A stretch of DNA of 64,000 nt from Octopus sinensis (lineage: Eukaryota). The notes beneath the pieces are model-generated. The model had not been told where the DNA came from and did not search any database. It saw nothing but the letters and a program-made list of their open reading frames with translations. Of this stretch, positions 1,638-44,887 are shown piece after piece. Position 1 is the first letter of the stretch; each line of letters opens with the position of its first letter. A program made the translations under genes and the position numbers. The stretch is from the NCBI RefSeq assembly GCF_006345805.1, contig NC_043012.1, positions 58,342,001-58,406,000 on the forward strand, read 5' to 3'.

Positions 1638-1843
1638 ATATATATATATATATATATATATTATATAGATAAGAAAGTTTGTTTGGTAAAGCACGTGGGT
1701 GAATATATAAGAAAATAGTAAAGTGTGAAAAAACGACAGAAGGCTTAAATGTTAAAAAATATATATATTTGTGTCAAAATGTCTGGAGAATATTGAAAAA
1801 AATTTTTTTTCCTTTCCTTAAAATGACATAATTTAAAATTTTT

Positions 1844-1883
1844 AAGAAATTACCGGTTTCGCGTGTAGCTTTTCAAATTTCTT
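1844..1883 (-). ncRNA. Minimal type I hammerhead ribozyme, U3-A8 variant core
   Basis: AAGAAAT-TTGAAAA-GC tacac GC-GAAA-CCGG-TA-ATTTCTT. 7-bp helix I, palindromic helix III. Confidence 0.8.
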
Positions 1884-2018
1884 GTGACGTTATGTTTATA
1901 TTGCATGGAGTTATCGTTGTTTTTTTTTCCAGGAGATTTCTAATAAGGGGAGGTAGTGAGTGATTTCTTTCGGTGTAGGGGAGATAATCGCTTAAAACTT
2001 TTTTTTCCCTTTTCCTTG

Positions 2019-2471
2019 TTAATTTCTCTGTGTCAGTATGTTCGGATGGTTGAGTCTGTGTTTGTACTTTTCAATGAAGAATGTTTCCTTGTTCAGTCTC
2101 ATTTGTGTTGATGATCCGAAAGCACATTGGTAAAATGGGAAGATTAAAAATTGTGGCAGTAGTTGCTTTGCGCATTTCTCAATGTGCTCACTAAAAGGTA
2201 TCATTCTATATTCTGGGAATGCAATCTGTTGTCGATGCAGTGTGCATCTACGCCTGAGTGATAGTCCCGTGGAACCTACGTAGTCTTGGTGGCAGCCCGA
2301 GCATTTAATAACATAAATTATGTTTTCAGAGGCACAAGTCAAGTTAGATTTGATCTTAAATTTCTGTCCCTCTTTAAAGAAGAATTCTGATCCTTCCAAT
2401 AGGTTAGGACATGTTGCACAGTTCGATCTACCACATATTTTTACTTTTGCATCCGTAATTTTAGAAGACAA
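2019..2471 (-). pseudogene. GIY-YIG endonuclease domain of a 5'-truncated PLE ORF
   Basis: Motifs IIYVIKCSGCHQDYVGSTG and RLNKETFFIEKY. No RT core and no true start codon. Confidence 0.88.
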
Positions 2472-2730
2472 TTTTGCCTTTGTGAGAATCTTTTTAAGAG
2501 ATTTAGGCTGTTTGTAGCTTTTAATGATTTGGTGTATGTTTAGAATTTCCTTTAATTTTGGGTTTTTATGAAGTATTGGTAAATTCTGGGTGATGATGGT
2601 GAAGGCGTCTTTGTTTCTGGGGTTGTATGTAGATATGTAAGGTAGAATTTTCGGGGAAGGTGTGTTGTTGTGTTGAACTTTTCTTAAAGTTTCTATGTTG
2701 ATTTCTGTTCTATGTTGATTTCTGATTTCT

Positions 2731-3455
2731 GATCGAACTGTGCAACATGTCCTAACCTATTGGAAGGATCAGAATTCTTCTTTAAAGAGGGACAGAAATT
2801 TAAGATCAAATCTAACTTTACTTGTGCCTCTGAAAACATAATTTATGTTATTAAATGCTCGGGCTGCCACCAAGACTACGTGGGTTCCACGGGACTATCA
2901 CTCAGGCGTAGATGCACACTGCATCGACAACAGATTGCATTCCCAGAATATAGAATGATACCTTTTAGTGAGCACATTGAGAATGTGCAAAGCAACTACT
3001 GCCACAATTTTTAATCTTCCCATTTTACCAATGTGCTTTCGGATCATCAACACAAATGAGACTGAACAAGGAAACATTCTTCATTGAAAAGTACAAACCC
3101 AGACTCAACCATCCGAATATACTGACACAGAGAAATTAACAAGGAAAAGGGAAAAAAAAAATTTTTAAGTGATTATCTCCCCTACACCGGAAGAAATCAC
3201 TCACTACCTCCCCTTATTTAGAAATCTCCTGGAAATAAAAACAACGATAACTCCATGCAATATAAACATAACGTTACAAGAAATGTGAAAAGCTACACGC
3301 GAAACCGGTAATTTCTTTAAAAATTTTAAAATTATGTCATTTTAAGGAAAGGAAAAAGAATTTTTCCAATATTCTCCAGACATTTTGACACAAATATATA
3401 TATTTTTTAACATTAAGCCTCTGTCGTTTTTTTTCACACTTTACTATTTTCTTAT
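2731..3455 (+). mobile_element. Inverted duplicate of the PLE 3' end (GIY-YIG and pLTR)
   Basis: Near-identical reverse complement of about 1700-2428. ORF 2760-3014 is frameshifted. Confidence 0.9.
3278..3317 (+). ncRNA. Hammerhead motif, damaged core (GTGAAAA)
   Basis: Same as 1844-1883, but the first core base is T>G. Confidence 0.65.
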
Positions 3456-3490
3456 ATATATATAATAATATATATATATATATATATATA

Positions 3491-3576: not shown

Positions 3577-4376
3577 ATATATATATATATATTATATATA
3601 TATATATATATATAACAAAATAGGACTTGTAAAATTTATTAATGTCATTTATTCACCATCACACATGTCTAGTTTGGTAAAAGAAATTACAGAGGTTTAA
3701 AAGTTCAACAGACATTAAAATTTGAAATATCGTATTGGAAATTCTTCAGACAGAGAAATTAAATATTATTATTTGATATACATACTATGTAATATTTAAC
3801 GTATACATATATATACATACACGGTGCCTATAGCAAACTGATGAACTAGATTTCTTTATATGCATTAATTTCACAATACATATTTGTATTCTATAAAGCT
3901 AAGCATACATACTAACGCAAACATATGGGTATAGCTTCTTGCATTTAGTTTACCGATATTAATACTGCACGTTAAAGGTTTCGAAACAGCTGTAACTTTA
4001 TGGACGTAATGTGGTTAAGTAAATATATATCCACTATATATGAGTGTGTGTGTGTGTGTGTGTATACATATATACATACATACATATATATATATATATA
4101 AACTAAACAGAATTCGTCTATATGTTATAATGATGTTTGTTAGATATGTAACAGAAATGAGTAAGCTGGCAGTTAATGCCAAAGGAGATAACTAGGTTAA
4201 TATAGTTTAATATATTATATATATATATAATATATAATTAAAATGAGGGTGTCTAAGAACACCAACATGCCGAAATAGCAGTCGAAACTCTGACTATAAA
4301 AACCACGTTAAGGGTTCGTGTCGCACCATGAGATAAGACAGATAGACAAAATATACAAGCAAAAATTATTGAATAA

Positions 4377-4433
4377 TTCAAGATCCAGGATTTCTGGTTT
4401 TGCTTTAAATAAGCTTTACCGTCATCGGTTGAA
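4377..4433 (-). ncRNA. Type I hammerhead, CCGAUGA core (array copy 1)
   Basis: TTCAA-CCGATGA-c-GGT..GCTT..AAGC..ACC-a-GAAA-TCCtGGA-TC-TTGAA. Confidence 0.72.
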
Positions 4434-4853
4434 TATATCAAGAGTACATAAATACAGATATATACATGCAGAACAAACGATATACTTACATTACGAACGT
4501 CCATACATAAATACATATGCACGTATGCACGCGGCCAGTTAAATTACCCGCCGAATCATCCCAAAGTACGACACGGTTAAAATAACACCGCAGTGAAAAT
4601 AATAACGAATTATATATATTTATATATGAGGATAATATCGATATTTAAGTATCCATATTATCTAGTGGTCAGCATGGGAAAAATACCGTACAAAGGTAAT
4701 AATTTTTAACAATTAAAAATGAGGGTGTCTAAGAGACACCAACATGCCGAAATAGCAGTCGAAACTCTGACTATAAAAACCACGTTAAGGGTTCGTGTCG
4801 CACCATGAGATAAGACAGATAGACAAAATATACAAGCAAAAATTATTGAATAA

Positions 4854-4910
4854 TTCAAGATCCAGGATTTCTGGTTTTGCTTTAAATAAGCTTTACCGTC
4901 ATCGGTTGAA
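4854..4910 (-). ncRNA. Type I hammerhead, CCGAUGA core (array copy 2)
   Basis: Identical motif 477 bp from copy 1. Confidence 0.72.
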
Positions 4911-5132
4911 TATATCAAGAGTACATAAATACAGAATATACATGCAGAACAAACGATATACTTACATATACGAACGTCCATACATAAATACATATGCACG
5001 TATGCACGCGGCCAGTTAAATTACCCGCCGAACGCGTGCATACGTGCATATGTATTTATGTATGGACGTTCGTATATGTAAGTATATCGTTTGTTCTGCA
5101 TGTATATATCTGTATTTATGTACTCTGATATA

Positions 5133-5189
5133 TTCAACCGATGACGGTAAAGCTTATTTAAAGCAAAACCAGAAATCCTGGATCTTGAA
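5133..5189 (+). ncRNA. Type I hammerhead, CCGAUGA core (array copy 3)
   Basis: ttcaaCCGATGAcggtaaagcttatttaaagcaaaaccaGAAAtcctggaTCttgaa. Confidence 0.72.
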
Positions 5190-5610
5190 TTATTCAATAA
5201 TTTTTGCTTGTAATTTTGTCTATCTGTCTATCTCATGGTGGCGACACGAACCCTTAACGTGGTTTTTATAGTCAGAGTTTCGACTGCTATTTCGGCATGT
5301 TGGTGTCTCTTAGACACCCTCATTTTTAATTGTTAAAAATTATTACCTTTGTACGGTATTTTTCCCATGCTGGCCACTAGATAATATGGATACTTAATAT
5401 CGATATTATCCTCATATATAAATATATATATAATTCGATATTATTTTCACTGCGGGTTTATTTTAACCGTGTCGTACTTTGGGATGATTCGGCGGGTAAT
5501 TTAACTGGCCGCGTGCATACGTGCATATGTATTTATGTATGGACGTTCGTATATGTAAGTATATCGTTTGTTCTGCATGTATATATCTGTATTTATGTAC
5601 TCTTGATATA

Positions 5611-5666
5611 TTCAACCGATGACGGTAAAGCTATTTAAAGCAAAACAGAAAATCCTGGATCTTGAA
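5611..5666 (+). ncRNA. Type I hammerhead (array copy 4, indels around helix II)
   Basis: Same motif with single-base indels. Confidence 0.6.
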
Positions 5667-6997
5667 TTATTCAATAATTTTTGCTTGTATATTTTGTCTA
5701 TCTGTCTTATCTCATGGTGCGACACGAACCCTTAACGTGGTTTTTATAGTCAGAGTTTCGACTGCTATTTCGGCATGTTGGTGTCTCTTAGACACCCTCA
5801 TTTTTAATTGTTAAAAAATATTACCTTTGTACGTATTTTTCCCATGCTGCCACTAGATAATATGGATACTTAAATATCGATATTATCCTCATATATAAAT
5901 ATATATATATAATATCATATATATATATAGATATATATATATATATATATATACATATGAATAACACAATACTAAAGTTTCATTTATATAATTAATAAAT
6001 GAAATATAAAACGACAACGTAAAATACCATAAATAATAAAATAGAATTTTATTGTATTCTATAATTTATGCATATCTTCCCTATTTTCAAAGAGCGGTGG
6101 AAAGTATTTAGAGATTAAACAGATAGAATTCAGAGAAAATTAACGAAAGCCTAAATTTTGCAAGGAAATTCGTCTGAAGAATTTTAATATTGAAAGTGAA
6201 CTCAAGAATCTGAATTGAAATAGCCGTCGGCATGGGCTTAGAATTAATTACAGAATGAAATCTGATTGTGTTTCTTAAAATTTCATATTCTTGAAAACGA
6301 AAGTCTGAAAATAAACTCTTATCTAGACTGTTTGTTATTTTCTGGTTTAATATTTTCATTTTGAGCTGTCGAAATACAAGGAAAATTTTATCATTTAATA
6401 TGCATATTAATTAATTAAACTTTTCACAGTTTTACTTCATTGCAACAGAATTTGGTAACTGAAAGATAATAGAGAAATTGTTATATTTTGAAGATGGGAA
6501 AACTGCTGAAATAATTGAAGCTGTAGAGCAGCGTATTGAATACCTTGTCGTATCTAGGTCCATGTTTTTTTTATGTGTTTTATTTCAGTTCTACTGGGAT
6601 CCTCTGTATCTTCCATTTCGTCTGGGTACTATGATTATCTTTCTATCTTTCTCTGTTGTTGTTTGTTGTTAGTCCGCTGTCTACTTTCGTAATCATTTCT
6701 CTGCCGCCATCCACATCTGATTCCCTTGAAAGTGTAGATATGCATAATCAAAACAGCTGCTTGCAAAAGTCTGTTTTTTCATTCTTTAAAGAAGTTCTAT
6801 ATTTGCAACTAATTAATTCATCTGTCAGTAAGTAGCAACTCTTTTTCACCAACAAGAATCGACTAAGACGGAAACGTTGTGATACCTGCAATGTCTGGCC
6901 GAAAGTGTTTAGCGATTCCAAGCAAAAATATTTTCCGCTTTATTCTACCACAGATTTTCTTCTGGAGATTTCTCTCTCAATCTTATGACTAAGCAAA

Positions 6998-11098: not shown

Positions 11099-11170
11099 TG
11101 GAGATGCCGGGGATCGAACCCGGGGCCTTTCGCATGCAAAGCGAACGCTCTACCACTGAGCTACATCCCC
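11099..11170 (-). tRNA. trnA-UGC: tRNA-Ala (anticodon TGC)
   Basis: GGGGATGTAGCTCAGTGGTAGAGCGTTCGCTTTGCATGCGAAAGGCCCCGGGTTCGATCCCCGGCATCTCCA. 72 nt, full cloverleaf, G3:U70 alanine identity pair, intact A and B boxes. Confidence 0.97.
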
Positions 11171-43511: not shown

Positions 43512-44663
43512 GAAAAATAAGGAAACTGTTGACAATGCATAGAATGCACCACCCTAAGGCAGATACAGAACGACTCTATCTGCCAAGAAAAGAGGGAGGC
43601 CGTTGTCTTTTACAACTGGCAATAACAATGAAGATTGCTACAATTGGCCTAGACACCTACCTAAAAAACTCTGAGGACTGGATGTTAAAACTTGTCTCAA
43701 AACATGAAAACAAGAAAGCATCATACTCAGTCACAAAACAGGCAAAGGAATATCTAAGTGAATTCCGAATATAACCAATTTCGGAATTAGAGATAGACAT
43801 ACAAGAAACAAGCACAGAAAAACCTAAGCGCATGAAAACCCGTGCCAAAACTGCGGCCTTAGATATTCTGAATAATAAATGGCAAGAAAAACCTCTCTAT
43901 GGCAAATACCCAAAGAGAGCGAATAATGCAGATATCGACAAAGCCCTGACCCATCAATGGCTAATGGCCTCTGGCTTAAAATCTGAAACAGAGGGTTTAT
44001 CATAGCAGCTCAAGATCAATGCCTACCAACAAGAAACTACCAGGCCAACATATTAAAGAACGGCAGTAGCCCAACATGTCGTGTATGCCGACAACAAAAT
44101 GAAACAATTGATCATGTTGTCTCCAAATGCAGTCTTCTAGCGCCTACAGAGAACCTCAACAGGCATGATAGAACTGCACAATATATTCACTGGGTAATTT
44201 GCAAAAACCTGGATTTGCCCCATGAAAAAAACTGGTGGGAACACAATCCACCTCCAGTGCTTGAAAATGACCACATCTCACTCCTCTGGAACTTCACCAT
44301 TCAAACTGACAGGAAGATAGATGCAAATAGGCCAGACATCATATTGAAAGACTTCAGACAAAGAACATGCCTCCTCATTGATATGACTGTCCCAATCGAT
44401 ATAAACGTATCTGTCAAGACCTACCAAAAGCTGAGCAAATATAAAGATCTTGAAATAGAAATCAGCAAAATGTGGAAGCTGAAGACTAAAACAATACCTG
44501 TTGTCATAGGTGCCCTGGGAATGATAGCGAAAGGGACTGATTTGCTACCTAACTCAGATACCAGGAAACCCCAAAATGGCAGAAATTCAAAAGATAGTGC
44601 TCATGGGAACTGCTCATATCCTACGCAAAATACTCTCTATGTAATCCCAAGGTTTAAAACAAA

Positions 44664-44697
<34 letters not shown>

Positions 44698-44887
44698 ATT
44701 TTATTTTATTTTTTTTATTTTTTATTTTTTATTTTATTTTTATGTATTAGACATTCACTAGCACAACACCAAAAAAAAAAAAAAAAAAAATATATGGCAC
44801 AGAACTTCCAACCTGTTGTCTTTTGAGGTCTCTGGGTGAGACTTGGAGCCAACTTGTACAGACATAAAGCAAAAGTCAAACATAGAA
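43510..44887 (+). mobile_element. 5'-truncated R4/Dong-like non-LTR retrotransposon (zinc knuckle and restriction-like endonuclease), pseudogenised
   Basis: HPKADTERLYLPRKEGGR, CRVC..ETIDHVVSKC (CCHC), RHD, RPDII..LIDMTVP..K..KYKDL. One stop and frameshifts. (TAA)n on both sides. Confidence 0.9.

What the first reader, a model, noticed from the sequence alone, without database searches (positions are those of the whole stretch)
4236..5897. 477-bp tandem HHR array folded into a 1.66-kb palindrome: retrozyme-like unit with a CCGAUGA core
Seen: four copies of a non-coding unit, two per strand, with one HHR per unit at 477-478 nt spacing and an inversion at about 5032. All four cores read CCGATGA instead of CTGATGA. 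Established: metazoan non-LTR retrozymes are tandem non-coding units with one type I HHR each and yield unit-length linear or circular RNAs. Inference: transcription in either direction gives two HHRs in cis, allowing dimeric helix III and release of an approximately 477-nt monomer. Read-through also forms about 800 bp of dsRNA. Caveat: the copies differ mainly by 1-nt indels, which could be long-read error or a fold-back assembly artefact.
Basis: partly seen in the sequence, partly recalled or inferred. Interest (0 to 1): 0.75.

Follow-up and report, generated by a model that had tools for sequence, protein, structure and literature searches.

The report
Penelope-style retrozyme with altered hammerhead core
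This palindrome is one young copy of a scattered, protein-free repeat family with a hammerhead-ribozyme motif, likely pasted in by a Penelope-type transposon enzyme, and its odd core letter is shared by the whole youngest subfamily, whose self-cutting is untested.

Summary
The palindrome, four CCGAUGA hammerheads and 477-nt spacing are real. It is one copy of a dispersed non-coding family: 125 exact CCG-core matches in the genome. The mirror shape is the ordinary Penelope-like (PLE) insertion footprint, not an artefact. In 22 of 24 two-armed loci one arm ends at unit position ~322 and the other at ~422, mostly into (TA)n, while inversion points vary. A coding PLE 0.8 kb away has the same build. 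Older subfamilies have canonical CUGAUGA, and stems I and II covary, so the hammerhead is genuine. U4C is fixed in the youngest lineage, is not CpG decay, and probably preceded a pair-keeping stem II change. Read-through of the palindrome is predicted to bury the hammerheads in ~765 bp of duplex, so it would not release monomers. Cleavage, expression, circles and junction reads are untested. Verdict: a non-LTR retrozyme, new variant of a known kind. This scan found similar two-armed families at least eight times in this genome and a CCGAUGA retrozyme in another.

The parts
4236..4555 (-). Outer partial unit u1-322; 3' end at fixed site A, running into (TA)n
4556..5032 (-). Full 477-nt unit (u1-477), left arm
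5032..5033 (.). Inversion junction joining the 5' ends of the two arms (u1 and u23), no microhomology
   Evidence: not checked against reads
5033..5487 (+). 5'-truncated unit u23-477, right arm
5488..5909 (+). Outer unit u1-422; 3' end at fixed site B
5810..5909 (+). 100-nt 'tail' present on one arm only (u323-422)
   Evidence: compare the 30-40-bp PLE tail in PMC8557442
4376..4434 (-). Type I hammerhead motif, CCGAUGA core, predicted cut after 4382
4853..4911 (-). Type I hammerhead motif, CCGAUGA core, predicted cut after 4859
5132..5190 (+). Type I hammerhead motif, CCGAUGA core, predicted cut after 5184
5610..5667 (+). Type I hammerhead motif with 1-nt indels in stem II (likely sequencing error), predicted cut after 5661
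4210..4235 (.). (TA)n target microsatellite, left flank
5910..5958 (.). (TA)n target microsatellite, right flank

Best explanation
This is one young two-armed insertion of a dispersed, non-coding 477-nt hammerhead repeat family (a non-LTR retrozyme), likely copied into (TA)n microsatellites in trans by the reverse transcriptase and GIY-YIG endonuclease of a Penelope-like element. Shown: the family, the two fixed 3' ends (u322, u422), variable inversion points, the TA target, circularly permuted tandem units, no reading frame, covarying hammerhead stems, and U4C fixed in the youngest lineage. Inferred: a unit is transcribed from a tandem array, is cut (probably slowly, as a dimer) at two hammerheads 477 nt apart and may be circularised. 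Each end of the cut TA target then primes cDNA at one of two AU-rich sites 100 nt apart (both a hairpin followed by CCUCAU in this subfamily), copying can run more than one lap, and the two 5'-truncated cDNAs are joined back to back. The palindrome is a by-product of integration. Read-through of it would give double-stranded RNA that hides the ribozymes.
For: Family: 2112 first-look candidates, 40 scored, 65 matches; 125 exact CCG-core matches, control 0. Ends: of 56 non-redundant loci 24 are two-armed; 22 of the 24 pair one u322 end with one u422 end and none pairs like with like; 76 of 80 3' ends fall at these two sites, 61 of the 76 with a TA-rich flank. The same two ends occur in subfamilies of about 80-86% and about 70% identity. 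Copies that extend 5' of u1 continue into u477, closing the circle; 7 of 19 distinct insertions carry two or more same-strand hammerheads. Internal control: the coding PLE at window 1672-3459 is also a palindrome with two fixed ends 40 nt apart, both CTTAT + (TA)n, and its family has open frames of about 800 aa at 94-97% identity. PMC8557442 describes this build (inverted 5'-truncated copy, one-sided tail, TA target) for PLEs. Hammerhead: stems I+III 96.8% paired in 38 distinct rows, 3 pairs with changes on both sides, against 16-54% paired when slid; stem II has three double changes between subfamilies. U4C is not CpG decay: CTG 108 matches, CCA 2 matches, neither of the family. In a tree built without the hammerhead, CCG copies with the old stem II branch below those with the new stem II.
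Against: No autonomous partner with shared sequence was found: the neighbouring PLE family does not match the unit, and two chance adjacencies to PLE fragments were not pLTR links. So the helper enzyme is inferred from the footprint alone. No cleavage, expression or circle data. U4C lowers activity considerably in vitro (PMC3088659), and only 1 of 9 predicted Xenopus dimers cleaved (bioRxiv 10.64898/2026.07.22.740005). Since U4C the hammerhead has not been clearly more conserved than the rest of the unit (3 of 59 against 26 of 313 fixed changes). In the youngest subfamily the predicted isolated fold loses outer stem II (P 0.012). The whole-circle fold shows no compensatory double change. The tree has one exception nested in the young clade (L163, CTG with old stem II), one CTG copy with the new stem (L056), and unsettled bootstrap values. 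The tail is 100 nt, longer than the 30-40 bp reported for PLEs.
Confidence: 0.8

Rival explanations
1. The family is mobilised by PLE machinery but its ribozyme is now dead or dispensable. U4C inactivated it, and long linear transcripts of tandem arrays serve as template, so no 477-nt circle is made.
For: Predicted loss of outer stem II and two competing hairpins over the core in the youngest subfamily; no significant excess conservation of the hammerhead after U4C; insertion ends lie 148 and 248 nt from the cut site, not at it; most predicted Xenopus dimers were inactive.
Against: All three fixed hammerhead changes after U4C keep stem II pairing and no other core base changed; a U4C viroid hammerhead stays functional in vivo (PMC3088659); older subfamilies also misfold as isolated monomers in prediction.
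Confidence: 0.35
2. The units are truncated pLTRs of an unseen coding PLE, not an independent non-autonomous element.
For: The build is that of PLE insertions; most PLE hammerheads in genomes belong to truncated copies (PMC4209133); my tblastn used one PLE protein and most flanks were only 1.5 kb.
Against: Upstream of u1 the sequence returns to u477, for up to five same-strand units (L008). Of 88 loci scanned (partly redundant, a few not of this family) 5 had PLE hits and none was a pLTR link; 0 of 29 other copies of the PLE next to L113 carry the unit.
Confidence: 0.08
3. The palindrome is a long-read fold-back or assembly artefact.
For: The copies differ only by 1-nt indels; the junction was not checked against reads.
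Against: The flanks are not mirrored, the arms end at different fixed sites and the centre is offset by 22 nt. 22 of 24 two-armed loci repeat the asymmetric pattern, including diverged subfamilies whose arms differ from each other. The unit is held at half of its words or more by 11 of 24 listed runs, one of which may be the assembly's source.
Confidence: 0.03

Closest known systems
Metazoan non-LTR retrozymes (PMC7229834, passages and Discussion read; bioRxiv 10.64898/2026.07.22.740005, parts 1-3 of 5 read)
   Same: Non-coding, low-GC (34%) tandem unit with one type I hammerhead each; dispersed monomers, dimers and multimers; co-exists with PLEs.
   Different: U4C core fixed in the lineage; extra nucleotides on both sides of stem II; two-armed insertions with two fixed ends into (TA)n, which I did not see described for retrozymes in the parts read; expression and circles not shown here.
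EN+ Penelope-like elements, insertion structure (PMC8557442, passages read)
   Same: Partial tandems, inverted 5'-truncated copy, one-sided tail, (TA)n target.
   Different: No RT or GIY-YIG frame; tail 100 nt instead of 30-40 bp; tandem units are a closed circular permutation.
PLE pLTR hammerheads (PMC4209133, parts 1-2 of 4 read)
   Same: Extra nucleotide between A9 and G10.1, G10.1-C11.1 pair, palindromic helix III suited to dimers; opposite-strand pairs 100-700 bp apart were noted there.
   Different: Here helix III has 3 bp, stem II is long and bipartite, there is a further A before G12, and the core is U4C, not U3/A8.
U4C viroid hammerhead variant (Ambros and Flores 1998; not held, known only through PMC3088659 passages)
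   Same: Same core substitution, reported as weaker in vitro but sufficient in vivo.
   Different: There a viroid variant; here fixed across about a hundred genomic copies of an animal retroelement.

Membership tests
Non-LTR retrozyme | Tandem non-coding units, each with a type I hammerhead | tested here: met
   no ORF of 150 aa or more over the element
Non-LTR retrozyme | Hammerhead fold supported by covariation | tested here: met
   (events between subfamilies, not independent rows); no Rfam hit
Non-LTR retrozyme | Canonical CUGANGA/GAAA/UH core | tested here: not met
   U4C in the window's subfamily; canonical in older subfamilies
Non-LTR retrozyme | Dispersed multi-copy family, low GC, no coding body | tested here: met
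Non-LTR retrozyme | Self-cleavage to unit-length linear and circular RNA | not testable with these tools
   needs cleavage assay and RNA; no RNA holder listed
Penelope-like element (autonomous) | RT and GIY-YIG reading frame between pLTRs | tested here: not met
Penelope-like element (insertion footprint) | Inverted 5'-truncated copy, one-sided tail, microsatellite target | tested here: met
   22 of 24 two-armed loci
Non-autonomous PLE derivative | Sequence similarity to the pLTR of a coding PLE in the same genome | tested here: inconclusive
   none to the two PLE families examined; other families not surveyed

The most novel reading that the evidence does not exclude
The lineage kept amplifying after fixing U4C and evolved a conformational off-switch: four of the five fixed changes since the CUGAUGA ancestor strengthen two small hairpins (ACCG/CGGU and CCAG/CUGG) over the catalytic core while the active stems stay possible. 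A slowed, switchable hammerhead would cut nascent multimers but spare the finished 477-nt circle, which a PLE reverse transcriptase then primes at two hairpin-marked sites. This would answer how animal retrozyme circles avoid re-cutting. Predicted outer stem II probability falls 0.97, 0.82, 0.60, 0.012 along the lineage, but random pair-keeping changes do as much in 5-11% of trials, and 34% by energy gap.
Probability: 0.15. Interest if true: 0.7.

Novelty: new variant of a known kind. Interest (0 to 1): 0.42.

Why it matters
It gives a graded natural series (about 70%, 80-86%, 89%, 99% identity) of one retrozyme lineage in which a catalytic-core change arose and then spread. That allows a direct test of whether animal retrozymes need efficient self-cleavage to move. 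The two fixed priming ends also tie a non-coding hammerhead repeat to the PLE integration mechanism, which published work infers mainly from co-occurrence and pLTR similarity. The locus itself is ordinary for the family, and the scan has noted the same two-armed pattern in several other families of this genome.

Tried and rejected
Rfam: no hammerhead hit; the miRNA-model hits are repeat-driven hairpins below gathering score. Junction support from reads was not obtained, so it stays open. Autonomous partner: the neighbouring PLE family shares no sequence with the unit. PLE N-terminal fragments downstream of L006 and L113 looked like a parent, but 0 of 29 other copies of the L113 fragment have the unit upstream, and L006 is a 99% copy beside a decayed fragment (not tested further). 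Four of five fetched loci of other TTCAA-stem motifs held no family unit and no adjoining RT frame. CpG decay as the source of the CTG/CCG difference was rejected. Whole-circle structure: z -6.0 sense and -3.2 antisense against 60 shuffles, but no compensatory double change between subfamilies, so not claimed. The off-switch idea was not significant against my own nulls, one chosen after seeing the data. Literature searches: hammerhead+Penelope+octopus, octopus+hammerhead ribozyme (50), hammerhead+U4C (17), retrozyme+inverted+Penelope+microsatellite (71); none listed a paper on this family. Only open-licence papers are searched, and no supplements or Repbase/Dfam entries were seen, so the family may already be catalogued. 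Look-up of earlier notes by this sequence found nothing.

Full report
Observation. The inverted repeat is real: 4236-5809 at 96.8% identity. With U = reverse complement of 4556-5032 (477 nt), the left arm is u1-477 plus u1-322 on the minus strand and the right arm is u23-477 plus u1-422 on the plus strand, ending at 5909. The sense strands point outward from the junction at 5032/5033, which is offset by 22 nt and has no microhomology. Four CCGATGA cores lie at 4428, 4905, 5138 and 5616, with predicted cut sites 477 nt apart on each strand. Over u23-322 the copies differ by 0 substitutions and 4-7 gap columns. Both flanks are (TA)n.

Family. A search of the window's genome gave 2112 candidates, of which 40 were scored. 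An exact pattern with the CCG core matched 125 times, control 0; by my count of the 100 rows listed, 79 have the window's stem II, 19 an older stem II and 2 are unrelated. The CTG pattern matched 108 times; of the 100 rows listed 91 are older subfamilies, 2 have the window's stem II and 7 are other motifs. A still older group of about 70% identity was reached through a chance hit. Median divergence within groups is 1.0% for the window's subfamily (29 copies), 4.1%, 5.0% and 5.9% for the older ones. The loci are the best-scoring or first-listed hits, so they are not a random sample.

The palindrome is an insertion footprint. Of 56 non-redundant loci (14 redundant ones dropped), 24 are two-armed; 22 of these join one arm ending near u322 and one ending near u422, and none has two like ends. 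76 of 80 3' ends fall at these two sites, 61 of them with a TA-rich flank (L169 and L170 have arms more than 60 nt apart and were counted as one-armed). Inversion points vary widely. Both end sites are a hairpin followed by CCTCAT in this subfamily and CCTTAT in the older ones. A fold-back artefact would mirror the flanks and give equal ends. PMC8557442 (passages) describes partial tandems, an inverted 5'-truncated copy, a 30-40-bp tail on one end and (TA)n targets for PLEs. The window holds its own control: 1672-3459 is a palindromic 3' fragment of a coding PLE with a C-terminal GIY-YIG (weak Pfam hit, E 0.015; the Neptune-like label is my reading of its linker motif), a minimal U3/A8 hammerhead, and two fixed ends 40 nt apart. 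Its family is young, with open frames of about 800 aa.

No coding parent found. Copies that extend 5' of u1 continue into u477; 7 of 19 distinct insertions have two or more same-strand hammerheads. tblastn with one PLE protein on 88 loci gave hits in 5. L089 and L058 are opposite-strand neighbours. L006/L009 and L113 sit upstream of decayed N-terminal fragments; 0 of 29 other copies of the L113 fragment carry the unit. The neighbouring PLE family shares no sequence with the unit. The helper enzyme is therefore inferred, not identified.

The hammerhead is genuine but atypical. Layout: stem I 6 bp, core CCGAUGA, an extra C, stem II GGU/ACC plus an inner 4-bp stem, an extra A, GAAA, helix III of 3 bp with a near-palindromic loop, and UC. 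Across 38 distinct rows, stems I and III are 96.8% paired with 3 pairs changed on both sides; slid controls give 16-54%. Stem II shows C-G to U-A, U-A to C-G and A-U to U-A changes between subfamilies (4 of 38 rows with indels left out). These are a handful of events, not independent rows. Rfam does not detect the motif. An extra base between 9 and 10.1 and dimer-type helix III are known in PLE hammerheads (PMC4209133).

U4C. If CTG copies came from CpG decay of CCG, CCA copies should be about as common; there are 2 CCA matches and neither belongs to the family. A tree of 77 rows built from the flanks with the hammerhead left out is ladder-like: CTG, then CCG with the old stem II, then CCG with the new stem II (clade support 96/91), with two exceptions (L163, L056) and rough bootstrap values. 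After U4C the hammerhead took 3 fixed changes in 59 positions, all keeping stem II paired, against 26 in 313 outside. This is consistent with continued selection but is not a significant excess. U4C is reported as weaker in vitro yet sufficient for viroid infectivity (PMC3088659, passages; the original paper was not held). Only 1 of 9 predicted Xenopus retrozyme dimers cleaved in vitro (bioRxiv 10.64898/2026.07.22.740005). I put the chance that this core still cleaves usefully at about one half.

Folding. The 477-nt circle folds at z -6.0 (sense) against -3.2 (antisense), but without compensatory double changes between subfamilies. In the isolated motif the predicted outer stem II probability falls from 0.97 to 0.012 along the lineage as two competing hairpins form; nulls reach this in 5-11% of trials, and 34% by energy gap, so it is a lead only. 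PMC7229834 (Discussion) leaves open how animal retrozyme circles avoid re-cleavage. No promoter was mapped.

Mechanism. Shown: family, ends, target, circular permutation, covariation, fixation of U4C. Inferred: transcription from inside an array, slow dimeric cleavage, possible circularisation, priming by both ends of a PLE-cut TA target at two sites 100 nt apart, more than one lap of copying, and back-to-back joining. Untested: activity, expression, circles, junction reads, identity of the helper.

Prior art and verdict. Four paper searches listed nothing on this family; supplements and repeat databases were not seen. Earlier notes of this scan, read after my own reading was fixed, report two-armed PLE-style retrozyme families at least eight times in this genome (one note calls the host an octopus, which I did not test) and a CCGAUGA retrozyme in another genome; none matched this sequence. 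They are unchecked and not used as support. Verdict: it works like a non-LTR retrozyme and meets the structural criteria except the canonical core. New variant of a known kind, interest 0.42.

Noticed in passing
window 1672-3459: Palindromic 3' fragment of a young coding PLE (C-terminal GIY-YIG) with a minimal U3/A8 hammerhead (core at 1876, minus strand), a 40-nt tail and (TA)n flanks; at least 150 copies at 94-97% protein identity.
   Followed up: yes
window 3940-4010: Looks like a decayed PLE-type hammerhead remnant (GAAA, palindromic loop, TA) just left of the element; seen by eye only.
   Followed up: no
window 11099-11170 (-): tRNA gene match, 73.7 bits.
   Followed up: no
L051-L053 (G000 C10, C11, C15): Other hammerhead families share stem I TTCAA/TTGAA and extra bases either side of stem II; L051 is a short palindrome and its stem II loop shares a 16-17-nt stretch with u236-255 of the unit.
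   Followed up: partly
L020-L025: One two-armed insertion with its flanks is present six times (one chromosome, five small contigs), pointing to a segmental repeat or redundant contigs.
   Followed up: no
L006:1024-2280: A one-armed three-hammerhead array with non-TA flanks, an atypical end (u393) and a possible 7-nt flanking repeat, next to a decayed PLE 5' fragment; may have inserted by another route.
   Followed up: partly
L163 (G000 C17:52442000-52443300): CTG core and old stem II inside flanks that group with the young subfamily; possible mosaic of two templates.
   Followed up: no
window 43987-44826: 279-aa open stretch resembling the C-terminal zinc-knuckle/endonuclease part of a non-LTR retrotransposon (recalled resemblance).
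   Followed up: no
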